From: an uncultured Planctomycetales bacterium
GTDB taxonomy: Bacteria > Omnitrophota > Gorgyraeia > Zapsychrales > JAHFFX01
Length of the DNA: 64,000 bases
Direction of reading: 5' to 3'
NCBI GenBank assembly: GCA_964620805.1
Contig: CAZUJQ010000002.1
Coordinates: 6,253-70,252 of the forward strand
How positions within the stretch are numbered: position 1 is the first letter of the stretch; each line of letters starts with the position of its first letter. Positions 4,297 through 61,265 of the stretch are shown here, piece by piece. The notes beneath the pieces were generated by a model. The model had not been told where the DNA came from, did not search any database, and saw nothing but the letters and a program-made list of their open reading frames with translations. A program made the position numbers and the translations under genes.

Positions 4297-4299
4297 TAA

Positions 4300-15723: not shown

Positions 15724-15727
15724 TATT

Positions 15728-17125: not shown

Positions 17126-17150
17126 TTTAAAATTTTGATCAGCCTATCAG

Positions 17151-17323
17151 GTTGCCTTTGTTTCCAGTGTTTCCGAGGTTGCCGATGTTAATTTATTTAC
17201 GTGACATTTTTAAGGTTGCTTAATGTTGCCTGATGTTGTCTTTTCCAACCTTTAGTAACTTCAGGCAACATCTTGAAAGGCAACCTTGGTAACTTTGGCA
17301 ACATAGGAAACATTGGCAACTTT
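17151..17323. repeat. family-A element copy A3 (core variant, leader ORF disrupted)
   Basis: gttgccttt-gtttccagt-gtttccgag-gttgccgat ... ggcaacctt-ggtaacttt-ggcaacata-ggaaacatt-ggcaacttt. Confidence 0.8.
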
Positions 17324-20305: not shown

Positions 20306-20323
20306 TGGCGTTACTCGTAAGTA

Positions 20324-20624
20324 TCATTGCGACCCCGCCGTAGTTTGGCGGGGGAAGCAATCTTTTTACAATTTATCCCATAAATCTCCCCATGTAGAAA
20401 ACGCTGGTATAGGCTTCGTTCTTCTTCGCTCTCAGCCAAAGGCTGATCCGCCTCTGGCAGAAAATGTTCTTGCGTTTGCCCGCCCCGGCTATCGTGACTA
20501 GGCGGGCCAGGGAGCTTCGAAGGAACGATTCCTACGAAGCTCAAACATGAAAGTATTCGAGCGGAGAATAAAAGATTGCTTCGTCGCTTCGCTCCTCGCA
20601 ATGACACATTCCTCGCATGACACA
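20324..20624. repeat. family-B palindromic element core (TCATTGCGA...GAAGCAATCTTTT // AAAAGATTGCTTC...CTCGCAATGACA) split by a ~200-bp insertion that carries further repeat modules
   Basis: Left part 20324-20368 and right part 20568-20606 match the cores at 29731-29838 and 62458-62560. The insert contains 'AGAAAACGCTGGTATAGGCTTCG' (also at 24333) and 'CGAAGGAACGATTCCTACGAAGC'. Confidence 0.65.
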
Positions 20625-20636: not shown

Positions 20637-21626
20637 TCAAGCGAGATTGTCTGTTGGGACATCCGCTTTTGTCCATCCCAATTTCCATAAGAGAAACTTG
20701 AGCACATAAAAAAACTGCGCCGCGTAAGGTTTCAGGAAACGGTACGGCAGGGAAAATCTTATTCTCTCTGCCTCTTGCGGCCAGAAGTGTACGCCGATCC
20801 AGGGGAGATTTAAAACCGCGAGAGCGTAACAACGCGCCGCCTTTAGGTACTCCCGTATCCGAGAATAGAACATCCCGAATCGGTAATAATTGACAGCCCG
20901 GAACTTCCTGTATTCCGTCCCCCTCAGACGGCTGCGGATGACCGGTTTATCCAGGATTGTCAAATGGTCTTTGAGGTGAAGGTCCAGGCCTTTGCTGAAG
21001 TTCCCGGGGTGCCTTCGAAACTTTGCCAAAGGGCGATTGGTGTACTCAAAACGGTATTTTGTAGCAATACGGATCCACAAATCGTGATCCTGGTTGGTCA
21101 GAAGACTTTCATCGAAATGGCCCATTTCCTCGGAGACTTTTCGGCGGATGACCACCGTCAAGTGCCACACGAAATTGTCGAAAAGGAGGCTCTTAAACGA
21201 TTGTTCCCGATACCTCCCATCGACCGAGGTTTTGTAAATCTCGCTGTTGGCGTCCATGAAATAGGTTCCCGCACAAACAAAGGCAACGTCAGGATTCTGG
21301 TCCAGAACCGCTACCTGCCGTTCCAGCATGTCGGGCATCAGGGCATCGTCATTGCCGAGGATCACGTAATATTCGCCCTTGGCGTGACGCACGCCGGTAT
21401 TCATCGCCCCCGGTGGCCCCAAATTCTCCTGGTAAATGTACCGAATCCTGTCGCCGTATTTTTTCAAGACCTCAGCGGTATGATCCGTTGAGCCGTCATC
21501 GACAACGATGATTTCATAGTCTAAGAAAGTCTGCGCCAGGACGCTGTCGATCGCCTCACAGATATAATGAGGCCGGTTATACGTTGGTATTATGACGCTG
21601 ACTTTGGGCATGGGGCGATCACTCAC
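20637..21626 (-). CDS. glycosyltransferase family 2 (likely ATG start at 21611)
   Basis: 'KVSVIIPTYNRPHYICEAIDSVLAQTFLDYEIIVVDDGSTDHT'. The listed ORF starts at GTG 5 codons upstream of the first ATG. Confidence 0.7.
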   Translation of the reverse strand: MSDRPMPKVSVIIPTYNRPHYICEAIDSVLAQTFLDYEIIVVDDGSTDHTAEVLKKYGDRIRYIYQENLGPPGAMNTGVRHAKGEYYVILGNDDALMPDMLERQVAVLDQNPDVAFVCAGTYFMDANSEIYKTSVDGRYREQSFKSLLFDNFVWHLTVVIRRKVSEEMGHFDESLLTNQDHDLWIRIATKYRFEYTNRPLAKFRRHPGNFSKGLDLHLKDHLTILDKPVIRSRLRGTEYRKFRAVNYYRFGMFYSRIREYLKAARCYALAVLNLPWIGVHFWPQEAERIRFSLPYRFLKPYAAQFFYVLKFLLWKLGWTKADVPTDNLA

Positions 21627-21637
21627 TTTGAATATAA

Positions 21638-21802
21638 GTTGCCGATGTTTCCAAGGTTTCCGAGGTTGCCAAGGTTACCCTATTCATCTGACATCCTTTA
21701 AGGTTGATTGAGGTTATCTATGAGGGAAACCTCACGTAACTTTAGGCAACCTCTAAGAGGCAACCTTGGTAACTTTGGCAACATAGGAAACATCGGCAAC
21801 CT
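21638..21802. repeat. family-A element copy A4
   Basis: gttgccgat-gtttccaag-gtttccgag-gttgccaag-gttaccct; core attcatctgacatcctttaaggttg; right arm ggcaacctt-ggtaacttt-ggcaacata-ggaaacatc-ggcaacctg. Confidence 0.8.
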
Positions 21803-21820
21803 GATTGTCGGCTTCTTTTA

Positions 21821-23098
21821 TTAGACGCCGCCCCCAAACGCCTTGATGGCCTCCTGATAAGCCTTAAGCGATTCTTCCACTAATTTTTGATAGGAATAGG
21901 CTGTCCGGACCTTCTTTAACCCGTTGGCAGCCAGTTTAAGGCGTAACGCCTCATCTTGCAAGAGACGCAGGATGGCCTTCGCCAGCATCATAGCGTCCCC
22001 GGGATTAACCAGCAGGCCGTCTTTTTCGTGATGAATCAATTCTTTTAAACCTCCAGCGGTGGAAGCGATGAGGGCGCACCCCGAGGCCATCGCCTCCAGG
22101 GCGCTTAAGGGCAAACCCTCATCGTAAGAAGGCATGATCAGGATGGAACTTTTTCTTAACCAAATTTTAAGCTGATCCGGTGGCAATGTCCCCAGATATT
22201 CAAAATTTTTTGCTCCTATGGCTTCCCGCAGCATTTGACTGTTTTTCTTTCCATCAGAGGAGAAGGCATCAGCGCCCGCGACCGCCAATTGGACGTCAGG
22301 GAATTCTTTAATGACCAGGGGCAGGGCTTGGGCCATCACATCAATGCCTTTTCTTGGAATCAATCGACCGGCAAACAGGATCTGGCAAGGATCTTTTTTT
22401 CCATTGGGAGAGAAAATTTGACTATCAACCGCGTTATAAATGGTCTTGATATTCCGATTAATCCTCCAGACCTGCTTTACGAAATCCGCCGTATCCCTAG
22501 AGACCGCCGCCAAGCCATCCGCCTTAAGCAGGGTGTCCCGCTGCATGGCCCAAGAGATTCGCTCCTTTAAGCTCAAGGTGGTTGAAATGGGGTCACACCC
22601 CATTTCCCTGCCTAACGTTTCCTGGGTTGGAAATGGGGTTGGAAATGGGGTGTGACCCCATTTCCTAGACCATCCGTGCAGGCGAAAAAAGACCGGAAGG
22701 CGATTGTGGCGCCGGGCGTAAATAAACCCTTGCCGGAAATAATCGAAAGTTTCCACGATATCCAGGGCATATTCCGCTTGGACGGACTCGATTTTCTTCG
22801 CCACGGCTTTCGAATACCGCAAATCATTCAAGGGAAGAAACCGCTCAATCTTCCAGACCCCCGGGAAGAGATCGTCATCAAAGGGGACGTGGTGAACAAA
22901 AATATTTTGTCCCAATCGGCCGCGGTTTAAATCCCCTTCGTCCTGGCAAAGGATATGGACGGAGTGCCCCGCCTCACTCAAGGCCCTGGCATAATGGGCC
23001 GTGAAGGTCTCGATCCCGCCGGAATCTTGGTGAAAATTTCGACACAAAAGACAGATGTTCATCGGACTCCCCATCTCTCTCTTACTCAAGGGATTCAA
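21821..23098 (-). CDS. glycosyltransferase family 4
   Basis: GT-B fold, 'ILIMPSYDEGLPLSALEAMASGCALIASTAGG'. Carries the in-frame hairpin element at 22584-22665 ('RKWGHTPFPTPFPTQETLGREMGCDPIS'). Confidence 0.7.
   Translation of the reverse strand: MNPLSKREMGSPMNICLLCRNFHQDSGGIETFTAHYARALSEAGHSVHILCQDEGDLNRGRLGQNIFVHHVPFDDDLFPGVWKIERFLPLNDLRYSKAVAKKIESVQAEYALDIVETFDYFRQGFIYARRHNRLPVFFRLHGWSRKWGHTPFPTPFPTQETLGREMGCDPISTTLSLKERISWAMQRDTLLKADGLAAVSRDTADFVKQVWRINRNIKTIYNAVDSQIFSPNGKKDPCQILFAGRLIPRKGIDVMAQALPLVIKEFPDVQLAVAGADAFSSDGKKNSQMLREAIGAKNFEYLGTLPPDQLKIWLRKSSILIMPSYDEGLPLSALEAMASGCALIASTAGGLKELIHHEKDGLLVNPGDAMMLAKAILRLLQDEALRLKLAANGLKKVRTAYSYQKLVEESLKAYQEAIKAFGGGV
22584..22665. repeat. second copy of the in-frame palindromic hairpin pair (loop cac ... 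loop gtg), here with a 33-nt spacer holding an extra half-arm
   Basis: 'gaaatggggtcacaccccatttcc...ggaaatggggtt ggaaatggggtgtgaccccatttcc'; translated in the same frame as the copy at 14905-14962. Confidence 0.75.
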
Positions 23099-24545: not shown

Positions 24546-24582
24546 GGGGCTCCTAGTATTTTCACTTTAGTTCCAATATAAA

Positions 24583-25150
24583 GTTTCCGATGTTTCCAAA
24601 GTTTCCGAGGTTTCCAATGTTACCTCATTGATTCGAGATGCTTTAAGGTTGCTTAACGTTGTTTCAGGTTAAATTTCATTCTTTCCGGGTGTTGTCCATT
24701 TACCTTTATTGGACGACTTGTTCATGGACTTAAGGTATTGATTACTCATGTAAAGAGCGCTTTTACATAGTTTGGTCAATTGATCGTGTTCTTGAGGATT
24801 GATTAGCTTATCTTCCAAGCAATCATCAATATCTCCGCTTAATTCTTCCAAGGATCCTTGGCTTATGCGTATGGCCTTCAGAAACTCGGCTAAACTTCCT
24901 CGGCTGTAGCCCTCCCTGATATTCTGCTTTGCTGAGCGCGTCGCGCTTCTCATCTCACTGACAAGTCTAATATGGCTTTTTTCAAATCGTGTTATGATAG
25001 CCGCAACTAACTTGCGAAGCTCGCATATGTCTTGATAAAATTTGAGCTTTTCGTATGGTCTTGCTGGCATCTGCAACCTCACATAACTTCTTTGCAACCT
25101 CCAAGAGGCAACCTCGGTAACTTCGGCAACATGGGCAACATCGGCAACCT
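24583..25150. repeat. family-A element copy A5 with the four-helix-bundle gene inserted between core and right arm
   Basis: Left arm 24583-24625 plus core ttgattcgagatgctttaaggttgcttaacg; right arm 25071-25150 begins immediately after the 4HB start codon. Confidence 0.75.
24669..25097 (-). CDS. four-helix-bundle protein (23S rRNA intervening-sequence protein family; probable start at 25070, MPARPY)
   Basis: 'SATRSAKQNIREGYSRGSLAEFLKAIRISQGSLEELSGDIDDCLE' matches the S23/IVS four-helix-bundle family. Sits entirely inside family-A repeat copy A5. Confidence 0.6.
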   Translation of the reverse strand: MQRSYVRLQMPARPYEKLKFYQDICELRKLVAAIITRFEKSHIRLVSEMRSATRSAKQNIREGYSRGSLAEFLKAIRISQGSLEELSGDIDDCLEDKLINPQEHDQLTKLCKSALYMSNQYLKSMNKSSNKGKWTTPGKNEI

Positions 25151-25204
25151 CCTTTTACAGGCTCCTCATATATTCATGAATATTTAAGGCATAGGGCTAA
25201 ATAA

Positions 25205-26506
25205 TCAATAACATGAACTGCCCTTGGGGTCAGGGTGAATATGTTTGAACGCTAGCGTTTCCCTCTCTTTGTGTTGGATTTTCCACTGAGTTTTAGGGCG
25301 AAAAACCACCTCCGTAAACTTTTCATTTAAATTCGCTTCCACCTGGAATATATCTTTTTTGCGGATAAGAAAAGGATGCATCAGGTCCTTATCCCAGATG
25401 CCAAAGCGGACGAGATAAATCCCCGGAGACAACGGGGAATCCAAAAGCTGGACATCCACACTTCCCCGCCCTTGGAGGGAGTCCGTGGTGATCCCCATCT
25501 CCCGCGTATGGGAGCCGCAGCAGATCACGCCGTCCCGGCGGACAATCTCGATCGAAAAAATGGGTGTCGGGATCGTTTCCTTCGCTAAGAATTCGACATG
25601 GATGAAGAGGGAATCGTCGAACTGAAAGCTATCGGTCGCCTTGCCATCTCCTTTATGGAGCAGAGAGTTTAGGATTTCAATCGGTTCCTGAGTCGCCACC
25701 TTGACCTTTTCCGATTTTGAAATCGTTCTTCTCAATTCTTCTTCATGCTCGTGCAAGACCAGATTCTCATAGCTGGGAATGATCTCATCCGCGGGGCCCT
25801 CTTTGAGGATTTCGCCTTTGTTGAGTAAAAAAACCCGTTGGCACAAACTCTGGATCAATTCCATGTTATGGGAAACCAAAAGGATCGTGGTTCCGGATTT
25901 AAGGAGTTCCCTCATTTTTTGAGCACACTTGGATTGGAAGGCCAAATCTCCAACGGCCAAGACTTCATCCACCAAGAGAACGTCGGGATGAATATGGGCG
26001 GCCACGGAAAACCCCAGGCGCGAATACATCCCCGAGGAGTATCGTTTGATGGGGGTATCGATAAATTCCCTGAGACCCGAGAATTCCACGATCTGCTCCA
26101 ATCTCTCATCAATCTCCCGGCGTTTCATCCCTAGGATGGTCCCATTGAGATAGATGTTCTCTCGTCCTGTCAATTCAGGATGAAATCCTGCCGTGACTTC
26201 AATCAGGGCGGAGAGCCGTCCTTGGATCTTCATCGTCCCTTGGGTAGGATGCATGATTCTGGACAAAAGCTTAAGGATGGTGCTTTTGCCGGCGCCATTG
26301 GGGCCGATAAAGCCCACCACATCGCCCGGCTTCATGGTAAAGCTCACATCCTTAAGGGCCCAGAACTCCTTCTCCTTAAGGGTCCCGTTGGTTATTCCTT
26401 TTTTGCTCAGCGTTCGGATGAGATTGGGGATGCTGTCTCTTAAGGAATTGAATTTTTCTCCTCTTTGAAACTTCTTCCAGATATGGTGGAATTCGATGGG
26501 ATTCAT
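25205..26506 (-). CDS. wzt: polysaccharide ABC exporter ATP-binding protein (Wzt/TagH-like) with C-terminal carbohydrate-binding domain
   Basis: Walker A 'GPNGAGKST', signature 'YSSGMYSRLGF', Walker B 'LLVDEVLAVGD'; ~180-aa C-terminal extension as in Wzt. Confidence 0.7.
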   Translation of the reverse strand: MNPIEFHHIWKKFQRGEKFNSLRDSIPNLIRTLSKKGITNGTLKEKEFWALKDVSFTMKPGDVVGFIGPNGAGKSTILKLLSRIMHPTQGTMKIQGRLSALIEVTAGFHPELTGRENIYLNGTILGMKRREIDERLEQIVEFSGLREFIDTPIKRYSSGMYSRLGFSVAAHIHPDVLLVDEVLAVGDLAFQSKCAQKMRELLKSGTTILLVSHNMELIQSLCQRVFLLNKGEILKEGPADEIIPSYENLVLHEHEEELRRTISKSEKVKVATQEPIEILNSLLHKGDGKATDSFQFDDSLFIHVEFLAKETIPTPIFSIEIVRRDGVICCGSHTREMGITTDSLQGRGSVDVQLLDSPLSPGIYLVRFGIWDKDLMHPFLIRKKDIFQVEANLNEKFTEVVFRPKTQWKIQHKERETLAFKHIHPDPKGSSCY

Positions 26507-26632
26507 GGATTGGTTTCCTTTAAAAATTTAAAGCCTGGAAAGCATAGACAACTTTTTATTATATTTGACAATGTCCTGCCCTCTGTTTTATACTTTTTTC
26601 GTTGGGAATGACTCTCTTTTTTATTATTAACC

Positions 26633-26778
26633 GAACTTGAGTTTGGCAAATTTTCGAATTTGTCGTCGGAAAAGTCTCTCGGATCGCAAAAACAGGTTTT
26701 CGATACCACAAAATTGCTTTCTCGACGAGAACTACCTGAAAATACGGCCCAAAAGCCCGAAAAAGTGCCAAACTCAAG
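26633..26778. mobile_element. MITE-like element copy 1 (146 bp, terminal inverted repeats GAACTTGAGTTTGGCA / TGCCAAACTCAAG), possible 5-bp target duplication AACCG
   Basis: 146/146 identity with 59589-59734 as far as I can align by eye; flanks '...attAACCG|aacttgag...ctcaag|AACCGaat'. Confidence 0.7.
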
Positions 26779-26801
26779 AACCGAATAAACAAGGAAGCGC
26801 C

Positions 26802-27014
26802 ATGACTGTTAAAAACATCGAACGGAATATTCTTAAGCTAAACCCCCTTGAACGCATCCGCCTTATCGAAAGCCTCATATCGAGTCTGAACAAACCTGAC
26901 CCTGCCATTGAACGCGCTTGGGCCACGGAATCCGACAAACGTCTTATGGCATATAAAAAAGGATCTGTCAAAGGCATCGCTTGGGAAATTGTCAGAAAAC
27001 GCTTTGTCAAATGA
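26802..27014 (+). CDS. addiction-module antitoxin (TIGR02574-like)
   Basis: 'MTVKNIERNILKLNPLERIRLIESLISSL...'; stop overlaps the start of the RelE/ParE gene. The listed ORF start at 26637 is a repeat-encoded extension. Confidence 0.5.
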   Translation: MTVKNIERNILKLNPLERIRLIESLISSLNKPDPAIERAWATESDKRLMAYKKGSVKGIAWEIVRKRFVK

Positions 27015-27295
27015 AAATAGAATTCCTTCCCGTGGCTCAACAAGAGCTGATGGAAGCGGTTGAATTTTACGAAAATCAACTTAACGGCCTCGGCGTTCTC
27101 TTTTACAAAGAAATTTCTGAAGCCATCGAGCTTATACGAATTTTCCCTGAAGGCTGGCAACGGATTACTAAATTGAGCCGCAAATGTTGTCTGCATAAAT
27201 TCCCTTACATGATCCTTTATGGGATCGTTGACAATGTCATCGTTATTTCTTCCATCACCCACCAGCACCGGCACCCCGAATCCTATCTTCGCTGA
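27011..27295 (+). CDS. RelE/ParE-family type II toxin
   Basis: 94-aa 'MKIEFLPVAQQELMEAVEFYENQ...' ParE-like; 4-nt overlap with the antitoxin. Confidence 0.6.
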   Translation: MKIEFLPVAQQELMEAVEFYENQLNGLGVLFYKEISEAIELIRIFPEGWQRITKLSRKCCLHKFPYMILYGIVDNVIVISSITHQHRHPESYLR

Positions 27296-27336
27296 ACCTG
27301 CAGTTGACATCTTTTGAGAAACGTTGGCAACTTCTT

Positions 27337-28122
27337 TTAGATATTCTCCGCAAATTCCGGTTCTTTGCGATGGAACAAATAAAGGCCGAGAATGAATACT
27401 CCAATAGAGCAAAGACCGGCGTAGGTTAACCAGAAGGGATCCGGGACTTCCTTAAGAACAACAACCCTGTTGACAGATTCCAGAATACTTCCGATCGGAT
27501 TGAGCAGGAGGAGGATTTTCCAATTCCCGAAATGGCTGGCTTCATAATAGACAGGGGTAAAGAAAATGCCGTACATAAGGACAATCTCCACAATATACTT
27601 GACATCCCGATAAAAAAGGTTGGCCGCTGAAAGAAGAAGCCCTAATCCGGCGGTCAATAAAATGAGAAACACTGCAAGGACCAGAAGCCACAAGAGATAA
27701 AGGCTTATGCCCAGCTTCACGATCGTCAGAATCACCACAACCACTCCCGTGGCCACAACGAAATCAAAGAAGCACGCCGCAACCGAAGCCAAAGGCAGAA
27801 CCGCCTTGGGAAAATAGATCTTGGTCACCAGCATGCTGTTTCCCACCAGGCTCTGCATGCTAAAACGCAGAGAGCTAATGAAAAACATCCAAGGCAGAAC
27901 CTTGACGGAGATGGAGGCCAGATCGATCATCGCGATCCGCTCGCCGGCAACAACCGCCATGGCCTTCTTGATCAGGATCCCAGCGGCCACGGCCACAAAC
28001 GGCATAAAAATCGCCCAGAGAAATCCCATGGCGGCCTGCTTGTAACGGATACGGATGTCCCTGACCGTTAACATATATAAGAGATCCCGATATCGGAAAA
28101 TTTCAAGAATGGCGTTTTTCAT
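27337..28122 (-). CDS. wzm: ABC-2 type polysaccharide exporter permease (Wzm-like)
   Basis: Six TM helices, ABC-2 family layout, adjacent to wzt. Confidence 0.65.
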   Translation of the reverse strand: MKNAILEIFRYRDLLYMLTVRDIRIRYKQAAMGFLWAIFMPFVAVAAGILIKKAMAVVAGERIAMIDLASISVKVLPWMFFISSLRFSMQSLVGNSMLVTKIYFPKAVLPLASVAACFFDFVVATGVVVVILTIVKLGISLYLLWLLVLAVFLILLTAGLGLLLSAANLFYRDVKYIVEIVLMYGIFFTPVYYEASHFGNWKILLLLNPIGSILESVNRVVVLKEVPDPFWLTYAGLCSIGVFILGLYLFHRKEPEFAENI

Positions 28123-28745: not shown

Positions 28746-29714
28746 TCAAGAAGAAAGATAACAACTTTCGGTCTTCTCCCAACAATATTTATAAAAAATA
28801 AGAGGTAAATAGAAACACAAAAGAAGAAAGACCTTTATCTTTAGAACACGCTTTCTTTTACTCTCCTTGAATAATTCATTCCAATTCATCCAGATAAATG
28901 CATGACGTAAATTGTGCGCAAAAGAATGGTAAGGATCCTTGAGAATCGTAATCAAACGGTTGCGTCCCTGAAGTCGTATGAGCCATTCGGGTTTGGACAT
29001 ATGAGAACTCATGTGGGCACCCATGTGGTAGTGCAACACACGGCTATTTGTCACACAGGCAATCCTAAATCCTCGGAATTTGGCCCTTCTGGAGAAATCA
29101 AGATCCTCATCGTACAGAAAATAGAAGGGATCAAGTCCACCGATTTTTTTAAAGACCTCTTTCTTAACCAGCATACAGACGCCCCCCATCCAATCCACCT
29201 CATAAAATTCAGAAAGGTGTCCTTTCTTCTGATCTTCCATATAACTTGTGCGAGCAAGCATTTTTGACCGGAAAATGTAATCGATTTCTTTCCCTTCATA
29301 ATCATATTGAATAGGGCCTAGAATTCCTATGTCGGGGTGGACCTGGAAGACTTTGATCATTTCCGTTAACCAGGTGCGCTCGGCTTTAATATCTTGATTT
29401 AAGATTCCAACATAGTTTGCATTCCTTTTGATGGCCTCCTGAATCCCAAGATTGTAAGCCGATGATCCGAGATTCTTCTTGCATCGAATAAGCAAAATAT
29501 TTTTGAAGTTGTGTTCAATGTAAGAAGGACTGTCATCCGTGGAGTGATTATCAACGGCAATGACCTGGAGATTAGAATAGTCCGTTTCCAGAAGGGAACG
29601 CAGGCATAAATCTATCCATTTTTTCCCGTTATAAATCAAGACCACCAAGGTGACACGTGGCCAACGATCGCTTTTCATAAGGGTCCTTCCCTCCCTTCTA
29701 GTCGGTATTGTCAA
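28746..29714 (-). CDS. glycosyltransferase family 2
   Basis: 'VTLVVLIYNGKKWIDLCLRSLLETDYSNLQVIAVDNHSTDDS', 'YDEDLDF'. Confidence 0.6.
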   Translation of the reverse strand: MTIPTRREGRTLMKSDRWPRVTLVVLIYNGKKWIDLCLRSLLETDYSNLQVIAVDNHSTDDSPSYIEHNFKNILLIRCKKNLGSSAYNLGIQEAIKRNANYVGILNQDIKAERTWLTEMIKVFQVHPDIGILGPIQYDYEGKEIDYIFRSKMLARTSYMEDQKKGHLSEFYEVDWMGGVCMLVKKEVFKKIGGLDPFYFLYDEDLDFSRRAKFRGFRIACVTNSRVLHYHMGAHMSSHMSKPEWLIRLQGRNRLITILKDPYHSFAHNLRHAFIWMNWNELFKESKRKRVLKIKVFLLLCFYLPLIFYKYCWEKTESCYLSS

Positions 29715-29908
29715 AAGTTATTAACTTTGGTGTCATTGCGAGCCATCGTTGATATTTCGTTTTGGCGAAGCAATCTTTTTAGACGATCTCAAAGATTGCT
29801 TCGTCGTCGCTAAAAAGCGCTCCTCCTCGCAATGACACGATCTGGCATCCCCAAGTTTCATACTAATATTCTTTTTGATACCTACTCTTCATAAAACTTT
29901 TGACAGTA
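29708..29908. mobile_element. family-B MITE-like element (TIRs TTGTCAAAAGTT ... AACTTTTGACA with internal multi-hairpin core TGTCATTGCGAG...CTCGCAATGACA)
   Basis: Matches 62436-62630 in the same architecture, and the core at 20324-20624. Confidence 0.6.
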
Positions 29909-32977: not shown

Positions 32978-34249
32978 CTATACGTTGCCGAAGGGGAAAG
33001 TAGGGACAGCGCCCACTTTTGAAAAAGTAGGCGCTGTCCCTACTTTCCGAATTTCCTCCCAGGCCCGAAGAGCCAGGCTGTCAGGAATCTCCAAATCCTG
33101 GAAGGTCAAGATTTGCTCGGGTTCAACCGTTCTCTTGACGAGGGCGTTATGCACCAACCCCAAGGGCATATGCCCCGGATGTTCGGTCATTTTGACCGTC
33201 ACGCCCCGCAAAGAAAAGCTTCCCATGCCATGGGGAATCGATTCTCCCGGTGATAATTTCTTTTTCGCGATCGCGGCGATGCTGACTGTAGGACGGCTAG
33301 AGTTGTTGAGAAGAGCCGATCTTCCTTCAAAAGCCCTGCGAATAGTTTTAGGAATTTCCAGATGGCAGAGAATATGATTTTTAAAGAGCGAATAATAGGG
33401 TCCCTCTCCTAGTTTGAAATAATCCAGGGCCTGCTGCTGCACTTCGTCATGTTCCGCGATTAGAAAAATTTTGAAATGCGATTTGGCGATGACCGTGTAA
33501 TCGCTGATCGCTTGGCCGAGGCGCTTGGCTTCCTCAGCCAGGATATTCACGCACTCCTGAAAATTCTTAGTCTGGGGGCCCAGCATCCCGGTCTGTAGAA
33601 TAGTGGCGTTGAGGCCGTTGGCTATCAAGGCTTGCTCATACTGCATCTTGGTTCCATCGGTCGCGGCTGTGACCATGCCTAAAGTCAATCTCTGTTTCCT
33701 GGACCAAAATTGCATGTTTTCCAAAGACGGATTGGGATCGTAGAATCCCTTGACATTGCCAAAGACCAAGGGCCGAAATCCCATTTGGACAGCGTCCTCA
33801 TGGAGGGCCGCCAGGCAGCCGGGTTGATCTCCTTCGGCCTCGGTCAGATAACCTTTGTCCACAAAAAAAGAACCGGTCGTCACGTGGAATTCAGAGTTCA
33901 TGGTGACGACCGGAAGGCCCGCTTGAAAAGCGCGGTTGACAACCTCGGTGGCATGCAGAACATCGCCGCTACATTCCACGATCAAATCGGAATGGTCGAT
34001 GAGTTCGTCCAGAGAATTGGTCATAAGGTCCGACCGCGGGAATTCCCAACAGGAAGCAATGGGCCGGCGGGTCAAAACTTTGGAGACCGCGAAATCCTGC
34101 ACATTCTGCATGGCGAGCATAAAGCCCCGGGCGATGAATCCTGAGCCGACGACACCGATTTTTTTGATGGAACTTTTCATGGTTTTAAATTGCTCAAATG
34201 TTTCCAATGTTTCCGAAGTTTCCGAGGTTGCCAAGGTTATCTTATTCAT
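32978..34249 (-). CDS. NAD(P)-binding oxidoreductase with C-terminal SAF-like domain (COG4091-like); start probably MKSSIKK at 34180
   Basis: 'IGVVGSGFIARG' Rossmann motif. The first 23 listed codons are repeat-encoded. Confidence 0.4.
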   Translation of the reverse strand: MNKITLATSETSETLETFEQFKTMKSSIKKIGVVGSGFIARGFMLAMQNVQDFAVSKVLTRRPIASCWEFPRSDLMTNSLDELIDHSDLIVECSGDVLHATEVVNRAFQAGLPVVTMNSEFHVTTGSFFVDKGYLTEAEGDQPGCLAALHEDAVQMGFRPLVFGNVKGFYDPNPSLENMQFWSRKQRLTLGMVTAATDGTKMQYEQALIANGLNATILQTGMLGPQTKNFQECVNILAEEAKRLGQAISDYTVIAKSHFKIFLIAEHDEVQQQALDYFKLGEGPYYSLFKNHILCHLEIPKTIRRAFEGRSALLNNSSRPTVSIAAIAKKKLSPGESIPHGMGSFSLRGVTVKMTEHPGHMPLGLVHNALVKRTVEPEQILTFQDLEIPDSLALRAWEEIRKVGTAPTFSKVGAVPTFPFGNV

Positions 34250-34364
34250 TCCGACATTCTTAAGGTTAATTAACGTTGCCTGACGTTTTCAACCTTTTGT
34301 AACTTCGGGTAACCTCTAAAAGGCAACTTCGGCAACGTCGGCAACCTGGGAAACATTGGCAACA
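34190..34364. repeat. family-A element copy A6
   Basis: gtttccaat-gtttccgaa-gtttccgag-gttgccaag-gttatctta; core ttcattccgacattcttaaggttaattaacgttgcc; right arm ggcaacttc-ggcaacgtc-ggcaacctg-ggaaacatt-ggcaacata. Confidence 0.8.
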
Positions 34365-34370
34365 TAATCA

Positions 34371-35402
34371 CTAAGCATCCACCTCCGTAACTTCCATCAC
34401 CTTCTTAACCTCCATAACCTCATTAACCTTAAATTCCCTTTCCTTGAGCTTCTGGAGCCAATCCTCATGCTCGACATACCATTGAATCGTCCGGTCTAAA
34501 CCTTTCTCAAAATCAACAGAAGGCCTCCAGCCCAGTTCATCTTGAATTTTATGAGAATCAATCGCGTAGCGGCGGTCATGTCCCAGGCGATCCTCCACAA
34601 ACTCGATCAAAGACTCCGGTTTTCTTAGTTTTTTCAATAGCAATTTCACGAGATCGATGTTTCGCCATTCGTTGCTCCCCCCGATGTTATAGATCTCCCC
34701 CAACCGGCCTTTTTGCAGGACGACGTCAATCGCCCGGCAATGATTCTCTACGTAGAGCCAATCCCGGACATTCAGCCCGTCCCCGTAGACCGGCAATTTC
34801 TTATTGGCCAGGGCGTTGTTGATCATAAGAGGAATGAGTTTCTCCGGATACTGGTAGGGCCCGTAATTGTTGGAGCAGCGCGTGATGATCGCGGGAAACT
34901 TATATGTTTCATAATAGGATCGGACCAGGCAATCAGAGCCGGCCTTGCTGGCGGAATAAGGGCTGTTGGGCATAAGGGGTGAAGTCTCCAGGAAATAACC
35001 GCTGTGGCCCAAAGTGCCGTAGACCTCGTCCGTTGAGACATGAATGAATCTTTTCACTTGAGCCCTCATGGCCGCCTCTAAAAGATGGTAAGTGCCCAGG
35101 ACATTGGTGCGGACAAAAGCGGAGGCATCCTTGATGCTGCGGTCCACATGGGTTTCCGCGGCAAAATGAACCACATAAGCCGCACCTTCCATGGCCTTCC
35201 AGACATCGTCGAACTCCGCAATGTCTCCCAGGACGAAATTGTAGTGCGGATCGTCTTCTAGATCTCGAAGGTTGTTGAGATTGCCGGCGTAGGTGAGCTT
35301 GTCCAGATTAACGATGGCAACATCGGGATGAGTTCCCATCATATACCGCACAAAGTTTGATCCGATGAATCCGCAGCCACCGGTGACGAGTATTTTTTTC
35401 AT
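34371..35402 (-). CDS. rfbB: dTDP-glucose 4,6-dehydratase
   Basis: 'MKKILVTGGCGFIGSNFVRYM', YxxxK and full-length similarity pattern to RfbB. Confidence 0.8.
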   Translation of the reverse strand: MKKILVTGGCGFIGSNFVRYMMGTHPDVAIVNLDKLTYAGNLNNLRDLEDDPHYNFVLGDIAEFDDVWKAMEGAAYVVHFAAETHVDRSIKDASAFVRTNVLGTYHLLEAAMRAQVKRFIHVSTDEVYGTLGHSGYFLETSPLMPNSPYSASKAGSDCLVRSYYETYKFPAIITRCSNNYGPYQYPEKLIPLMINNALANKKLPVYGDGLNVRDWLYVENHCRAIDVVLQKGRLGEIYNIGGSNEWRNIDLVKLLLKKLRKPESLIEFVEDRLGHDRRYAIDSHKIQDELGWRPSVDFEKGLDRTIQWYVEHEDWLQKLKEREFKVNEVMEVKKVMEVTEVDA

Positions 35403-35431: not shown

Positions 35432-36331
35432 CTACTTTTTATAAAAAAATGCATTGTCAGCAAAAGTAGGCGCTGTCCCTAATTTTTCTAGAAACCGCTC
35501 AACGGCGTCCTGCCACGTTGGAGGTGTCATTTTGAGATCATCCGCCAACTTCTTGTTGGACATGGCGGAAAACGCCGGCCGCCGCGCCTGAAGCCTAAAC
35601 GAATCTGCCGGAACCGGGATCAATTCCATCGTCCTTCCGATTCTCTCGAAATAATATCTTGCCCATTCCAGGCGGGAACAATAGCCGCTGTTGGTCAAGT
35701 GATACAGGCCTTCTAATCTCTTGTTTAGCGCCAAAAATGTAAACTCGACCACATCCTCTGTGAAGGTGGGAACGGAGGTCTCATCACAGGCGATTTGAAG
35801 ACGATCGGTATTTTTCGCCCATTCCTCAAGCCGGAAAAGAAAATTATTCTTGCCCTGCCCGAAAAGCCAGCTCAATCGGAATATCAGAAATTGATCCGTG
35901 TATTTCTCAACCGCCTTCTCCCCTTCCCACTTGCTGTGTCCGTACACGCTGATGGGGTCCGGTTGATCCTCTTCTGTGTAAGGGGTCCCTTTCTGGCCGT
36001 TGAAGACGTAATCCGAGCTGAAGTGAACCAGAAATATTCCCTGGCTGTGGCATAGGCGTGCCAGGTTCTCTACCGCTTCCTGGTTGACCTGATAGGCCTT
36101 GGCCTTTTCTTTTTCGGCCTGGTCCACATGATTGAAGGCTGTGCAGTTGATGATGAGATCCGGCCCGATTGTCTGGAGCATGGCCTCCATCTGGGTTTTA
36201 TTCGTGATGTCCAAGTGGGCGTAATCGAAGCCCGCATAAGACACTTTGGACAACTCGAGCTTTCGGACAAATTCCCCTCCAAGCTGGCCTTCGCTTCCGA
36301 GAATCAAAGTTTTCTTATTGGTTTTTATCAT
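35432..36331 (-). CDS. rfbD: dTDP-4-dehydrorhamnose reductase
   Basis: 'LILGSEGQLGGEF' N-terminus, RmlD-type short-chain reductase. Confidence 0.75.
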   Translation of the reverse strand: MIKTNKKTLILGSEGQLGGEFVRKLELSKVSYAGFDYAHLDITNKTQMEAMLQTIGPDLIINCTAFNHVDQAEKEKAKAYQVNQEAVENLARLCHSQGIFLVHFSSDYVFNGQKGTPYTEEDQPDPISVYGHSKWEGEKAVEKYTDQFLIFRLSWLFGQGKNNFLFRLEEWAKNTDRLQIACDETSVPTFTEDVVEFTFLALNKRLEGLYHLTNSGYCSRLEWARYYFERIGRTMELIPVPADSFRLQARRPAFSAMSNKKLADDLKMTPPTWQDAVERFLEKLGTAPTFADNAFFYKK

Positions 36332-38179: not shown

Positions 38180-38197
38180 TTTTTATTTCCGTAATAA

Positions 38198-58306: not shown

Positions 58307-59581
58307 TTACCTTTCCAAGATTACCGCCGCGCCCTGGCCCCCGCCCACGCACAGCGCCACCAATCCCGCATGGAGATTGTTTCGATGAAGGTGCTTGAGC
58401 ATGGTGAGAATGAGGCGCGCCCCGCTGGCGCCCACGGGATGGCCTAAGGCGATGGCCCCTCCATTGACATTGAGAATCTCGGGTTGGATCGATCCCGTGA
58501 ACCCTTCATAGCTGAACTCCCGAGCGAAGGCCGGGCTTTCTAACGCCTTAAGGCATGCTAACACTTGCGCGGCAAAGGCCTCGTTGATTTCGATGGCATC
58601 GATGTCTTTTAAACTCATCTCTGCTTTTTTTAGAACGCGGGGAATCGCGTGCGCCGGCCCAATCCCCATCCGGTGCGGCTCAACGCCGGCAAAAGTAAAC
58701 GCCCGCAAATACCCTAAAGGCTTAAAGCCCATATCTCTGGCTTTGCTTTCTCTCATCACCAGCAGGGCCACCGCCCCGTCGGTCACTTGGCTGGAATTTC
58801 CAGCGGTGACCGTGCCGGCGACGCGATCAAAAATCGGCCTCAAGGCCGCCAGCGCCTCGAGCGTTTGGTTCTCCCGGGGGCCGTTGTCTTTGTCCACAAC
58901 GCTTTTATAATGGGGGCCGGGAATGACCGGAACGATTTCTTCTTTTAAGCGCTCGCGTCCGGCGATGGCCCGTTGGTGGCTCCGCAGGGAAAATTGATCC
59001 TGATCTTTGCGGCTAATGCCGAATTCCTTGGCCAGAACTTCCCCTGTCTGGCCCATATTCAGACCGCACACTGGATCCGTGAGGCCTAGGTTCAAGCCGA
59101 TACGCGGCTTTAAAAATCTAGGCCGAATCTGGCTTAAGGCCCGCAGTTTTTCCAGAAAAGTCTTGGATTTGCTGAATCTAAAAATAATCTCCTGGAGGCC
59201 TTTGGAGACGAAAAACGGGATGTTGCTCATGGATTCGGTCCCTCCGGCCAGAACACAATCCACTTCATTCATGTGTATTTTGGCAGCGGCGCTTGTCACG
59301 GCCTCCAGACCGGAGGCGCAGTTTCGATGAACAGTAAAAGCCGGTGTTGTGGAAGGAATCCCGCTTAAGAGCGCGATGACCCGCGAGATATTGGCGGCGT
59401 CGGGCGGTTGGGAGACATTCCCAAAAATGACTTCGTCAATCAGAGTCACATCCAGATTCAATCGTTCGATCAACTCTCGTGCGGCGATCCTTCCCAGCTC
59501 CTGGGCGCTTAAGTCGTTAAAGACCGTGCCCATCTTGGCAAAGGGGGTGCGGATGCCGTCTATGATGGCGATTCTTTCCAT
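58307..59581 (-). CDS. acetyl-CoA C-acyltransferase (thiolase); listed ORF start 59665 is a MITE-encoded extension, real start MERIAII at 59581
   Basis: 'NRNCASGLEAV' active-site Cys, C-terminal 'NVNGGAIALGHPVGASGARL', 'CVGGGQGAAVILER'. Confidence 0.8.
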   Translation of the reverse strand: MERIAIIDGIRTPFAKMGTVFNDLSAQELGRIAARELIERLNLDVTLIDEVIFGNVSQPPDAANISRVIALLSGIPSTTPAFTVHRNCASGLEAVTSAAAKIHMNEVDCVLAGGTESMSNIPFFVSKGLQEIIFRFSKSKTFLEKLRALSQIRPRFLKPRIGLNLGLTDPVCGLNMGQTGEVLAKEFGISRKDQDQFSLRSHQRAIAGRERLKEEIVPVIPGPHYKSVVDKDNGPRENQTLEALAALRPIFDRVAGTVTAGNSSQVTDGAVALLVMRESKARDMGFKPLGYLRAFTFAGVEPHRMGIGPAHAIPRVLKKAEMSLKDIDAIEINEAFAAQVLACLKALESPAFAREFSYEGFTGSIQPEILNVNGGAIALGHPVGASGARLILTMLKHLHRNNLHAGLVALCVGGGQGAAVILER

Positions 59582-59588
59582 TATATTA

Positions 59589-59737
59589 GAACTTGAGTTT
59601 GGCAAATTTTCGAATTTGTCGTCGGAAAAGTCTCTCGGATCGCAAAAACAGGTTTTCGATACCACAAAATTGCTTTCTCGACGAGAACTACCTGAAAATA
59701 CGGCCCAAAAGCCCGAAAAAGTGCCAAACTCAAGTTC
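59589..59737. mobile_element. MITE-like element copy 2 (identical to 26633-26778), immediately upstream of the thiolase start
   Basis: Perfect 16-bp TIR 'gaacttgagtttggca...tgccaaactcaagttc'. Confidence 0.7.
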
Positions 59738-59783
59738 TCTACTTCTTTACTTCTGACTTCTGACCTCTGACTTCTGACCTCTC

Positions 59784-61265
59784 CTACGATTTCGGACGAA
59801 GATCCAAAATTCTCTTTTCCTTAGAAGAGGTCTCTAATTCCAATCTTTTAACCAATTCCGGCAACGAGGTGAAAATGATCTGATTCGGCGTGACCTCGGT
59901 GGCGGAAGCAATGCTTTTTTTGAGTTCTTCTTCCATCTGCCGTTTTTCGGAATTTTGGGAGCACACGTACACCACCAGCTCATCGACCTCATGAGGATCA
60001 TTGTCTTTCTTACGAATCTCGATCTGCCATTCGATGATCCCGGGAAAACCGTTTAACACGGTGGCAAAGTGATTCAAGTCGACCAAGGCCCCTTTGATCT
60101 TGGAGAGCGCCAATCCCTTGATATCGGAGATCCGCGTGATTTGACTGCTGATCCGGCCAACTTGCCGGCGGCAGTACGGGCACGGCTCATAGGTGATACC
60201 GCCTTTGACAAAATCCCCGGTTCGGTAGCGCACCACCGCGCTGCCCCGGCAATCCAGGGCGGTATAAACCAATTCGCCGTCTTCTCCCTCTTTCTGGGTT
60301 TCGCCCGTGTGGGGATCAATCACTTCAAAGATCTCCTTGTCGGGATAAAGATGATATCCGCTGGATGTGCCTGGTTTAGAGGGGCACTCCGCCCATGCCG
60401 AGCGGGCCTCGGTAAATCCATAGGTCCCAAAAATCGCGGTCTGGGTTGCGCCCATGGACATCAAAAGGTTTCTCAGTTTATCTTTATACGGCTCGGTCAC
60501 CGTGGCCGCGCCCAAAACCACCTTTTTGACAAAATCCATCCGGCATCCTTTTTCCTGAGCCACACGAAAAAAATGATAAACGTAGCTGGGCACGCCGAGA
60601 ATCACTGCGGGTTTCATCTTGAGGATCGCGTTGATATTGCCTTCGGTGGTCATCACCTTGCCGCCTCCGGTGCTCAAGGCCAGAACCCCTGAAGACAGCC
60701 CGCCAAAGACGACCTGCCAAAACGCCAGATGCGGAGCAAACGGAAAGACATTGACAATCCGCTCGGAGTCTTTGATGTCGAACAACTTCAGCATCCGGGC
60801 CCCCGAGAGATAAAGATTGTTGATGTCGTACATCGAATATAAGAATGATACCGGCGTGTGCGTTGTGCCCGTGGTGAAGGTCATAAAGACAGGACGGTAC
60901 TCTTTGCCCATTTGATCATGGAGAAATTCCTCGCCTCGTAAAATCTTCTTTAAAGCCAGTTGGAGAAGCCGAGGGGCCGGCCAGAAGCGCCGGATTTTTT
61001 CCGCATCCGGCTGCAGCACAAATTCCTTAAACTTCTCGAGGGACTCGGGTGAGGGAAGAAAATCCAGCTTCGAGGTCATGGGGACGCGCCTTAAGTCCTC
61101 GATCGTCCGGATGGTGCGGGGATCGATACGGTTTTGATCGAAGAGTTTCCGGTAATAGGGGCTGAAAGGATAAACCTGTCGGGTGATAAACTCGTACAGC
61201 TTTTTGTTTTGGAGTTTACGGATCTGGTTGTAGGAAAAATGGGAAATGGGACTCCAGGGATTCAT
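59784..61265 (-). CDS. adenylate-forming enzyme of the phenylacetate-CoA ligase / coenzyme F390 synthetase family
   Basis: 'FMTFTTGTTHTPVSF' AMP-binding motif, ~490 aa PaaK-like layout. Confidence 0.6.
   Translation of the reverse strand: MNPWSPISHFSYNQIRKLQNKKLYEFITRQVYPFSPYYRKLFDQNRIDPRTIRTIEDLRRVPMTSKLDFLPSPESLEKFKEFVLQPDAEKIRRFWPAPRLLQLALKKILRGEEFLHDQMGKEYRPVFMTFTTGTTHTPVSFLYSMYDINNLYLSGARMLKLFDIKDSERIVNVFPFAPHLAFWQVVFGGLSSGVLALSTGGGKVMTTEGNINAILKMKPAVILGVPSYVYHFFRVAQEKGCRMDFVKKVVLGAATVTEPYKDKLRNLLMSMGATQTAIFGTYGFTEARSAWAECPSKPGTSSGYHLYPDKEIFEVIDPHTGETQKEGEDGELVYTALDCRGSAVVRYRTGDFVKGGITYEPCPYCRRQVGRISSQITRISDIKGLALSKIKGALVDLNHFATVLNGFPGIIEWQIEIRKKDNDPHEVDELVVYVCSQNSEKRQMEEELKKSIASATEVTPNQIIFTSLPELVKRLELETSSKEKRILDLRPKS

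What the first reader, a model, noticed from the sequence alone, without database searches (positions are those of the whole stretch)
26633..26778. Two identical 146-bp MITE-like copies with 16-bp terminal inverted repeats (second at 59589-59737), each abutting a gene start
The copies appear base-for-base identical, implying recent mobilisation. TIRs are GAACTTGAGTTTGGCA / TGCCAAACTCAAGTTC. Copy 1 is flanked by a direct AACCG (possible 5-bp target duplication) and sits just upstream of the RelE/ParE antitoxin gene. Copy 2 ends 8 nt upstream of the thiolase start codon and is followed by the heptamer tract.

Both generate spurious in-frame N-terminal extensions (MVSKTCFCDPRDFSDDKFENLPNSSS...) in ORF callers. 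The element may supply promoter or RBS context to the downstream genes.
Basis: seen in the sequence. Interest (0 to 1): 0.6.

Follow-up and report, generated by a model that had tools for sequence, protein, structure and literature searches.

The report
High-copy MITE with IS701-like partner
The two identical repeats are copies of a 143-bp non-autonomous transposon (a MITE) that sits at about 90 or more sites in the metagenomes holding an uncultivated Omnitrophota-like bacterium and shares its ends with a 1.2-kb insertion sequence; it is a real but ordinary kind of mobile element.

Summary
The repeat is real. Positions 26633-26778 and 59589-59734 are identical over 146 bp, and the similarity stops there.

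Comparison with about 115 other copies and fragments in metagenome contigs moves the boundaries. The element is 143 bp (CTTGAG...CTCAAG), at 26636-26778 and 59592-59734. Its inverted ends are 21 bp, 19 of 21 complementary.

The target duplication is typically 7 bp and AT-rich. Copy 1 has AACCGAA, not AACCG. Of 25 assessable complete copies, 24 have a 6-9 bp flanking direct repeat. The exception is the window's copy 2.

A truncated scan gave 62 distinct flanks per end, about 91 insertion sites. Copies are nearly identical, and short-read contigs break inside the element.

The same ends (19-20 of 21 bases) and 7-bp duplications bound a 1216-1243-bp insertion sequence. It encodes a 363-aa DDE transposase that best matches IS701 models, just under the cut-off. 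Its duplication length, AT-rich targets, CT ends and complete YREK motif resemble the ISPepr1 subgroup of IS4.

So the MITE reading is supported. The promoter/RBS idea is not: no promoter-like site lies inside the element, and the two copies face their neighbouring genes in opposite orientations.

This is a new member of a known kind, of modest interest.

The parts
26636..26778 (+). MITE copy 1, 143 bp. It runs from the A end (CTTGAGTTTGGCAAATTTTCG) to the B end (CGAAAAAGTGCCAAACTCAAG).
   Evidence: Boundaries come from about 30 complete copies.
26629..26635 (.). Left copy of the 7-bp target-site duplication AACCGAA of copy 1.
26779..26785 (.). Right copy of the 7-bp target-site duplication AACCGAA of copy 1.
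26636..26656 (+). Left terminal inverted repeat (A end) of copy 1. It pairs with 26758-26778, 19 of 21 complementary.
   Evidence: It matches the IS ends at 18 of 21 positions.
26758..26778 (-). Right terminal inverted repeat (B end) of copy 1, read on the minus strand as CTTGAGTTTGGCACTTTTTCG. It matches both ends of the 1216-bp IS at 20 of 21 positions.
59592..59734 (+). MITE copy 2, 143 bp, identical to copy 1. It has no target duplication (flanks ATTAGAA and TTCTCTA); the flanking AGAA/TTCT extend the inverted repeat to 59588-59738.
   Evidence: (I19). Independent contigs L004 and L126 share a copy-specific SNP, which supports the junction.
26565..26594 (+). Sigma-70-like promoter TTGACA-18-TATACT (11 of 12) in native DNA upstream of copy 1. 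If it is used, copy 1 lies in the 5' leader of the toxin-antitoxin operon.
   Evidence: This is a consensus match only; use of the promoter is inferred.
26802..27014 (+). Antitoxin gene (Pfam Unstab_antitox), 23 nt downstream of copy 1. Its AAGGAAG Shine-Dalgarno-like motif lies outside the element.
58307..59581 (-). Thiolase gene. Its ATG is 10 nt from the A end of copy 2. ORF callers can extend it to the GTG at 59665 inside the element.
59784..61265 (-). AMP-binding (PaaK-like) CoA ligase gene upstream of copy 2 on the same strand. Copy 2 lies in the intercistronic gap of a conserved CoA ligase-thiolase-FadB gene order.

Best explanation
The two repeats are copies of a 143-bp miniature inverted-repeat transposable element. 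It encodes nothing and consists of two roughly 21-bp terminal inverted repeats around an unrelated 100-bp core.

It is most likely mobilised in trans by the DDE transposase of a 1216-1243-bp insertion sequence that carries the same ends. That IS is IS701-like by protein sequence. By duplication length, target preference and end sequence it resembles the ISPepr1 subgroup of IS4.

The transposase would recognise the ends, excise or copy the element, and insert it at AT-rich sites with a staggered 7-bp cut. Repair of that cut gives the 7-bp duplication.

The element has spread recently to about 90 or more sites in the metagenomes that hold this bacterium, which appears to be a Candidatus Omnitrophota organism. 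Both window copies are fixed insertions.
- Copy 1 lies between a promoter-like site and a toxin-antitoxin operon.
- Copy 2 lies between the CoA ligase and thiolase genes of a beta-oxidation-type gene cluster.

Both copies would be co-transcribed and would fold into a long hairpin.

Shown here: the repeat, its boundaries, the duplications, the copy number, the shared ends, the transposase family resemblance, and absence of the element at the orthologous site of the nearest relatives.

Inferred: that this particular IS clade is the mobilising partner and lives in the same genome, the cutting mechanism, and any effect on the neighbouring genes.
For: - Identity over 146 bp ends abruptly.
- Metagenome contigs carrying the window's own genes break inside the element in four to five independent assemblies, as expected for a multi-copy repeat.
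There are 62 distinct 20-nt flanks for each end, about 91 sites, and at least 42-47 sites in each of two samples.
- Among 25 assessable complete copies, 24 have a flanking direct repeat: 17 of 7 bp, 4 of 6 bp, 2 of 8 bp and 1 of 9 bp. The repeats are 85% A+T, in a window of 52% A+T.
- Across about 110 copies and fragments, no column has a minor variant in more than 5.
- A 1216-bp element with both ends reading CTTGAGTTTGGCACTTTTTAG encodes a 363-aa protein. It matches Pfam DDE_Tnp_1 and DDE_5. Its best NCBIfam match is the IS701 model, over its full length, at E 1e-39 to 1e-42.
- D96/D97, D182, E293 and Y286-R289-E293-K300 are invariant in 14 diverse homologues.
- Full-length copies in L037 (TTATTAA) and L134 (GTTATTA, an 8-kb NCBI contig) have perfect 7-bp duplications.
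- The exact transposase is found in samples 3300009444 and 3300022563, which also hold the window's organism. Homologues are named as Omnitrophica proteins by their sources.
- Shorter and longer variants with the same ends and 6-8 bp duplications exist: 97 bp in L050, on the same contig as a 143-bp end; 150 bp in L020; and 152 bp in L001.
- The nearest relatives (78% and 70% identical CoA ligase) keep the CoA ligase-thiolase-FadB order but have no element in the gap.
- No Rfam family matches.
Against: - Copy 2 has no target duplication.
- No strain-level empty site was found. Every assembly of this organism has both sites filled.
- The window holds no transposase gene, and the full-length IS was not physically linked to this genome. 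One contig carrying the identical IS has visibly G+C-richer flanks by eye (not computed).
- Five of the seven full-length IS copies with both flanks readable show no duplication. All five are on contigs of about 2 kb or less, so they are plausibly chimeric joins, but that was not tested.
- The element shares only its terminal 19-21 bp with the IS. It is not a simple deletion derivative, so the partnership rests on ends and duplication length alone.
- The transposase scores 132-145 bits against an IS701 cut-off of 150.
Confidence: 0.92

Rival explanations
1. Segmental duplication: the two copies are the core of a larger duplicated block, not transposed units.
For: Only two copies occur in the 64-kb window, and both are in the same orientation.
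Against: The flanks do not align beyond the 146 bp. About 91 other sites have unrelated flanks and their own duplications.
Confidence: 0.01
2. The element is a MITE that has been taken over for regulation: it supplies a promoter, an RBS or an RNA-processing or stability hairpin to the adjacent genes.
For: - Both copies lie 10-23 nt from a start codon and would be co-transcribed.
- The element folds into a long hairpin: -54 to -58 kcal/mol, z about -6 on either strand.
- Correia elements in Neisseria are cleaved by RNase III within mRNAs (PMC10969869).
Against: - No promoter-like site lies inside the element on either strand.
- The antitoxin's Shine-Dalgarno-like motif is outside the element.
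- The two copies are in opposite orientation relative to their genes.
- In a naive ORF analysis of 27 sites, distances to genes vary widely, and a few insertions fall inside ORFs.
- The strong fold is a trivial consequence of the inverted ends.
Confidence: 0.12
3. It is a structured non-coding RNA gene or another non-DDE repeat class (REP/BIME with a RAYT transposase, an integron attC site, or a CRISPR-like repeat), not a transposase-dependent MITE.
For: Strong predicted secondary structure, intergenic location and high copy number.
Against: - No Rfam match, even at E <= 1.
- Variable-sequence 7-bp duplications at nearly every copy. By general knowledge, REP and attC elements do not make these.
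- The ends match those of a DDE insertion sequence with the same duplication length.
- The element occurs in both orientations relative to neighbouring genes.
Confidence: 0.03

Closest known systems
Bacterial MITEs in general (Correia/NEMIS of Neisseria, RUP of Streptococcus pneumoniae, ERIC/IRU of enterobacteria, MITEAba12 of Acinetobacter)
   Same: - Length of about 100-150 bp, no coding capacity and terminal inverted repeats.
- Target-site duplications, and tens to hundreds of nearly identical copies.
- Mostly intergenic insertion, co-transcription as a hairpin, and spurious ORF calls.
- Like RUP with IS630-Spn1 (from memory) and MITEAba12 (PMC6382973 abstract), it appears to depend on a full-length IS with matching ends.
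   Different: - Unrelated sequence, with no match in the plasmid collection or Rfam.
- A 7-bp AT-rich duplication, where Correia and RUP duplicate TA (from memory).
- The host is an uncultivated Omnitrophota-like lineage.
- The partner belongs to the IS701/IS4 superfamily.
- No regulatory effect has been shown.
IS701 family of insertion sequences
   Same: The candidate partner's transposase matches the NCBIfam IS701 model over its full length (E 1e-39 to 1e-42) and carries Pfam DDE_5 plus DDE_Tnp_1. Its nearest annotated plasmid-borne relatives, at 23-27% identity, are all labelled IS701 family. JGI labels homologues 'SRSO17 transposase'.
   Different: - Scores of 132-145 bits are below the 150-bit cut-off.
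- The duplication is 7 bp, where the family definition gives exactly 4 bp (PMC2266710).
- The Y of the YREK motif is invariant here but absent from 23 of 27 IS701 members in that study.
- The length is 1216-1243 bp, against 1400-1550 bp.
- The ends do not fit ---YACT-Y--YR.
ISPepr1 subgroup of the IS4 family (De Palmenaer et al. 2008, PMC2266710)
   Same: - Duplication of 7-8 bp and a preference for AT-rich targets.
- 5'-CT ends and a complete Y-(2)-R-(3)-E-(6)-K motif.
- The end CTTGAGTTTGGCA fits the subgroup consensus YT-AA-YTT---A at 7 of 8 specified positions (my comparison with the table read).
   Different: - IS4 protein models match only the C-terminal half, and more weakly (86-97 bits against a cut-off of 250).
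- The element is 1216-1243 bp, against 1500-1600 bp.
- No ISPepr1 transposase sequence was available for a direct comparison.

Membership tests
MITE (non-autonomous class II element) | Short (under about 300 bp) and non-coding | tested here: met
   The element is 143 bp. Its only ORFs are spurious ones of 40-77 aa that run into the flanks.
MITE (non-autonomous class II element) | Terminal inverted repeats | tested here: met
   The ends are 21 bp, 19 of 21 complementary, with 13 perfect terminal pairs.
MITE (non-autonomous class II element) | Target-site duplications of fixed length and variable sequence at independent copies | tested here: met
   24 of 25 assessable copies have a 6-9 bp direct repeat, most often 7 bp, each with a different sequence. 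Window copy 2 is the exception.
MITE (non-autonomous class II element) | Many dispersed copies with unrelated flanks | tested here: met
   62 distinct flanks per end, about 91 sites, from a truncated scan.
MITE (non-autonomous class II element) | An autonomous element with matching ends and the same duplication length | tested here: met
   A 1216-1243-bp IS has ends matching at 20 of 21 (B end) and 18 of 21 (A end), with 7-bp duplications in L037 and L134. Whether it resides in the same genome is not established.
MITE (non-autonomous class II element) | Filled versus empty sites in close relatives that differ by the element plus one duplication | tested here: inconclusive
   All assemblies of this organism are filled. 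Relatives at 78% and 70% protein identity lack the element at the copy 2 site, but their intergenic DNA cannot be aligned.
MITE (non-autonomous class II element) | Demonstrated mobilisation by the partner transposase | not testable with these tools
   This needs a transposition or binding assay.
IS701 family (partner IS) | Transposase reaches the curated family model cut-off | tested here: not met
   NF033540 scores 132-145 bits against a cut-off of 150. It is the best-scoring model and matches over the full length.
IS701 family (partner IS) | 4-bp target duplication (PMC2266710) | tested here: not met
   The duplication is 7 bp in L037 and L134, and in the MITE copies.
IS701 family (partner IS) | YREK motif lacking the tyrosine (PMC2266710) | tested here: not met
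   Y286, R289, E293 and K300 are invariant in 14 homologues.
IS4 family, ISPepr1 subgroup (partner IS) | Complete DDE and Y-(2)-R-(3)-E-(6)-K motifs | tested here: met
IS4 family, ISPepr1 subgroup (partner IS) | 7-8 bp duplication, AT-rich targets and CT ends fitting YT-AA-YTT---A | tested here: met
   The most common duplication is 7 bp and the duplications are 85% A+T. The ends fit 7 of 8 consensus positions in the table read.
IS4 family, ISPepr1 subgroup (partner IS) | Transposase clusters with ISPepr1-group transposases | tested here: inconclusive
   IS4 models score 26-97 bits, far below their cut-offs and below the IS701 model. No ISPepr1 reference sequence was available.

The most novel reading that the evidence does not exclude
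The partner IS and its MITEs (143, 97, 150 and 152 bp) may represent an undescribed subgroup of the IS701/IS4 superfamily. It would be IS701-like in protein sequence. It would also have a complete YREK motif, 7-bp AT-rich duplications, ISPepr1-like CT ends and an unusually small 1.2-kb body.

This subgroup would have undergone a recent MITE burst in an Omnitrophota lineage and would also occur in a Planctomycetales MAG.

On this reading the many co-transcribed hairpins, including one 10 nt from the thiolase start codon and one in a toxin-antitoxin leader, measurably alter mRNA processing or translation. The duplication-free copy 2 would reflect a non-canonical insertion or a deletion between two copies.
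Probability: 0.3. Interest if true: 0.4.

Novelty: new member of a known kind. Interest (0 to 1): 0.3.

Why it matters
- **Assembly and annotation.** The element breaks short-read contigs of this organism at dozens of places. It also creates spurious ORFs and false N-terminal extensions, such as the 27-residue extension of the thiolase. Masking it would improve MAG assembly and gene calls for this lineage.
- **Recent transposition.** It documents recent, intense transposon activity in Omnitrophota, a phylum known almost only from metagenomes.
- **IS classification.** The partner IS mixes features used to separate IS701 from IS4, which matters for IS taxonomy.
- **What it does not do.** None of this changes the understanding of how MITEs work.

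Tried and rejected
- **Rfam.** No match on the whole window at gathering thresholds, nor on the copy 2 region at E <= 1. There are no tRNA or tmRNA genes in the window.
- **Genome-collection scan with a 21-nt end pattern.** It returned two loci. L001 is a real 152-bp relative in a Planctomycetales MAG. L002, from an Aquificota MAG, is a single end-like match with no partner end and no transposase, and I treated it as chance or a relic. The window's own genome is evidently not among the representative genomes scanned.
- **Thiolase look-ups.** Exact look-ups with either start codon found nothing. The junction was reached through FadB instead.
- **Empty sites.** None was found among all fetched loci or through the permease next to copy 1.
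- **Copy 2 as the progenitor locus.** Rejected, because the nearest relatives have unrelated intergenic DNA there.
- **Copy 2's missing duplication as an assembly chimera.** Rejected, because contigs L004 and L126 from one sample carry the same copy-specific SNP on both sides, and gene order matches the relatives. An inversion between copies is also excluded by the conserved synteny. No partner flanks ending in TTCTAAT or TTCTCTA were seen among the sampled ends.
- **The MITE as an internal-deletion derivative of the IS.** Rejected, because only the terminal 19-21 bp are shared.
- **Plasmid collection.** No DNA match to the element.
- **Literature.** Searches for IS701-linked MITEs or Omnitrophota MITEs gave nothing specific.

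Full report
**Observation**

Window positions 26633-26778 and 59589-59734 are identical over 146 bp. Alignment of 300-bp stretches shows no similarity outside that block. A 21-nt end pattern, searched with up to three mismatches, finds only these two copies in the window, four ends in all, against 0.01 expected by chance. The repeat is therefore real and is not part of a larger duplication.

**Boundaries**

I scanned the public metagenome collection for CTTGAGTTTGGYAMWTTTTMG, a pattern that matches both ends of the element.

Thirty complete copies (including the window's two and L126, an independent assembly of the copy 2 site) are exactly 143 bp, from CTTGAG to CTCAAG. In window coordinates the element is therefore 26636-26778 and 59592-59734.

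The ends are CTTGAGTTTGGCAAATTTTCG (the A end) and, on the other strand, CTTGAGTTTGGCACTTTTTCG (the B end). They give 13 perfect terminal pairs and are 19 of 21 complementary overall.

**Target duplications**

Twenty-five complete 143-bp copies have both flanks readable. Their abutting direct repeats are distributed as follows:

| Repeat length | Copies |
|---|---|
| 7 bp | 17 |
| 6 bp | 4 |
| 8 bp | 2 |
| 9 bp | 1 |
| none | 1 |

- Every repeat has a different sequence.
- Together the repeats are 85% A+T, while the window is 52% A+T.
- Copy 1 in the window is flanked by AACCGAA (26629-26635 and 26779-26785).
- The single copy without a repeat is the window's copy 2 (flanks ATTAGAA and TTCTCTA).

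**Copy number and age**

- The scan gave 62 distinct 20-nt flanks for each end. After pairing ends by complementary 7-mers, this is about 91 sites.
- Each of two samples (Ga0114945 and Ga0137796) holds at least 42-47 sites, and twelve flanks recur across samples.
- Contigs longer than 3 kb that carry the element average 47% G+C, close to the window's 48%.
- Eight such contigs from outside the window's region also carry the window's unusual 9-bp repeat arrays, which fits one host population or close relatives.
- Across about 110 copies and fragments, no column has a minor variant in more than five. This points to recent amplification.
- Contigs carrying the window's own genes stop inside the element in four to five assemblies: JGI 3300009444, 3300022563 and 3300025157, ENA ERZ27245685 and Logan SRR5747861. 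That is the usual mark of an unresolved multi-copy repeat.

**Candidate autonomous partner**

In eight loci the same end cores lie 1216-1243 bp apart, and two further full-length copies (L134, L135) were reached through the transposase. These elements encode a 363-aa protein.

- It matches Pfam DDE_Tnp_1 and DDE_5.
- Its best NCBIfam match is the IS701 model, over the full length, at E 1e-39 to 1e-42. The scores of 132-145 bits are just below the 150-bit cut-off.
- Plasmid-borne relatives, at 23-27% identity, are all annotated as IS701 family.
- The large protein database holds 176 relatives at E <= 1e-20. Most are on contigs of 1.2-2 kb. Several are named by their sources as Omnitrophica proteins and others as 'SRSO17 transposase'.
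- In 14 diverse homologues the residues D96/D97, D182 and E293 and the full Y286-(2)-R289-(3)-E293-(6)-K300 motif are invariant.

Both IS ends read CTTGAGTTTGGCACTTTTTAG. This matches the MITE B end at 20 of 21 positions and the A end at 18 of 21. Nothing beyond the terminal 19-21 bp is shared.

Two full-length copies have perfect 7-bp AT-rich duplications: TTATTAA in L037 and GTTATTA in L134, the latter on an 8-kb NCBI contig. Five other full-length copies, all on contigs of about 2 kb or less, have none. I attribute this to chimeric joining of flanks across a repeat, but I did not test it.

The exact L054 transposase occurs in samples 3300009444 and 3300022563, which also contain the window's organism. 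The two contigs carry the identical IS with different flanks, and one flank pair looks G+C-richer by eye (not computed). Residence of the IS in this genome is therefore not shown.

**Family placement of the partner**

De Palmenaer et al. (PMC2266710) give the defining features of the two candidate groups. The IS found here compares as follows.

| Feature | IS701 family | ISPepr1 subgroup of IS4 | IS found here |
|---|---|---|---|
| Target duplication | exactly 4 bp | 7-8 bp | 7 bp |
| YREK tyrosine | usually absent | present | present, invariant |
| Length | 1400-1550 bp | 1500-1600 bp | 1216-1243 bp |
| Ends | ---YACT-Y--YR | YT-AA-YTT---A, 5'-CT | CTTGAGTTTGGCA |
| Target preference | not stated there | AT-rich | AT-rich |

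The end found here fits the ISPepr1 consensus at 7 of 8 specified positions. By protein sequence the IS is closest to IS701. By DNA features and catalytic motif it looks like ISPepr1, although it is smaller than both. I leave it as an IS701/IS4-superfamily element that cannot be filed cleanly in either group.

**Related small elements**

The same ends bracket three other short elements:
- a 97-bp element with duplication TAATATA (L050, on the same contig as a 143-bp end);
- a 150-bp element with an 8-bp duplication (L020);
- a 152-bp element with a 6-bp duplication in a Planctomycetales MAG (L001).

The 152-bp element lies between infA and an rpoZ-like gene; that gene assignment is my reading of the ORF translations. 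The interiors are unrelated to the 143-bp core. Two of them contain a palindromic repeat of the GTCATTGCGAG type, which also occurs elsewhere in the window.

**Context of the two window copies**

*Copy 1.* It lies in a divergent intergenic region. On one side is the Wzt-type ABC ATPase gene (25205-26506, minus strand). On the other is a two-gene cassette: an Unstab_antitox antitoxin (26802-27014) and a 94-aa protein with no Pfam hit (27011-27295).

A strong sigma-70-like site (TTGACA-18-TATACT, 26565-26594) lies in native DNA upstream of the element, and no such site lies inside it. If that promoter is used, the element occupies the 5' leader of the cassette. This step is inferred.

*Copy 2.* It lies between the stop codon of a PaaK-like CoA ligase (59784-61265, minus strand) and the start of a thiolase (58307-59581, minus strand), 10 nt from the thiolase ATG.

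The order CoA ligase, thiolase, FadB is conserved in the nearest relatives, at 78% and 70% protein identity. Their 119-127-bp intergenic gaps contain no element and cannot be aligned with the window. The insertion is therefore specific to this lineage and is not an ancestral sequence.

Either strand of the element folds into a long hairpin closed by the inverted ends (-54 to -58 kcal/mol, z about -6). This follows directly from the inverted ends.

The two copies have the same orientation on the plus strand, but their neighbouring genes are on opposite strands. Copy 1 therefore presents its B end to the gene and copy 2 its A end. This argues against a shared oriented signal such as a promoter or RBS.

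A naive ORF analysis of 27 sites shows variable distances to genes and a few insertions inside ORFs. Lying next to a gene start is therefore not a general property of the element.

**Copy 2 without a duplication**

The junction is not an assembly artefact. Contigs L004 and L126, from one sample, carry the CoA-ligase side and the thiolase side respectively. Both carry a G-to-A variant at element position 67 that was seen in only five of about 110 copies and fragments, four of them (L003-L005, L126) contigs of the copy 2 site.

Conserved synteny on both sides rules out an inversion between copies. Three explanations remain:
- a deletion between two nearby direct copies;
- loss of one repeat;
- a non-canonical insertion.

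The flanks AGAA and TTCT extend the inverted repeat by 4 bp, which may be coincidence. I could not choose among these explanations.

**Verdict**

The repeats are copies of a MITE that has recently amplified to high copy number, and there is a well-matched candidate partner IS. It needs correction on the boundaries, the inverted ends and the duplication length, and its promoter/RBS suggestion has no support. This is a new member of a known kind. It matters mainly for assembly and annotation of this Omnitrophota-like lineage and for IS classification.

Noticed in passing
window 4297-4393, 15501-15731, 17133-17330, 21620-21810, 24565-25158, 34182-34373, 38180-38402: Arrays of a 9-bp unit (GGCAACNTN, four to six units) occur as inverted pairs about 80-430 bp apart (families D1-D5 and I1-I11). 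The pair at 24565-24662 and 25072-25158 brackets ORF 24669-25097 (minus strand), whose counterpart in L006 carries Pfam 23S_rRNA_IVP. The same arrays occur in other contigs that bear the MITE. This looks like a second, unrelated repeat or cassette system.
   Followed up: partly
window 20321-20366, 29688-29838, 62416-62560: Palindromic repeats of the type GTGTCATTGCGAG...GAAGCAATC / GATTGCTTCG...CTCGCAATGACAC (D11-D13). Similar cores form the interior of the 150-bp and 152-bp MITE variants in L020 and L001, which suggests that the inverted ends can capture other short repeats.
   Followed up: partly
window 14905-14965 and 22584-22666: Paired 25-26-nt palindromes GAAATGGGGTCACACCCCATTTCC, 100% complementary between the two sites (D9, I12, I14).
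   Followed up: no
window 59749-59782: A heptamer tract (ACTTCTG, 4.9 copies, also readable with period 14) lies between the CoA ligase stop codon and MITE copy 2. A similar GTCATCA-type tract flanks another MITE copy (L109), and ACGACTG repeats occur at 12602-12634.
   Followed up: no
window 25205-28122: The antitoxin plus 94-aa-protein cassette (26802-27295, plus strand) and MITE copy 1 lie between the wzm permease gene (27337-28122, minus strand) and the wzt ATPase gene (25205-26506, minus strand) of a polysaccharide ABC exporter. This splits a gene pair that by general knowledge is usually adjacent. Two metagenome contigs (L141, L142) end at window position 27059, inside the 94-aa gene, which hints at another repeat or a strain variant there.
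   Followed up: partly
window 32995-33048 and 35461-35485: A near-perfect 26-nt palindrome (GGAAAGTAGGGACAGCGCCCACTTTT / AAAAGTAGGCGCTGTCCCTACTTTCC), with a further copy of one arm 2.4 kb away (I15, I20).
   Followed up: no
L100 1240-1278: An IS-type end lies 7 bp (ATAATAA) from the end of another copy of the same IS family. This is a tandem or nested insertion, in a sample different from those holding the window's organism.
   Followed up: no
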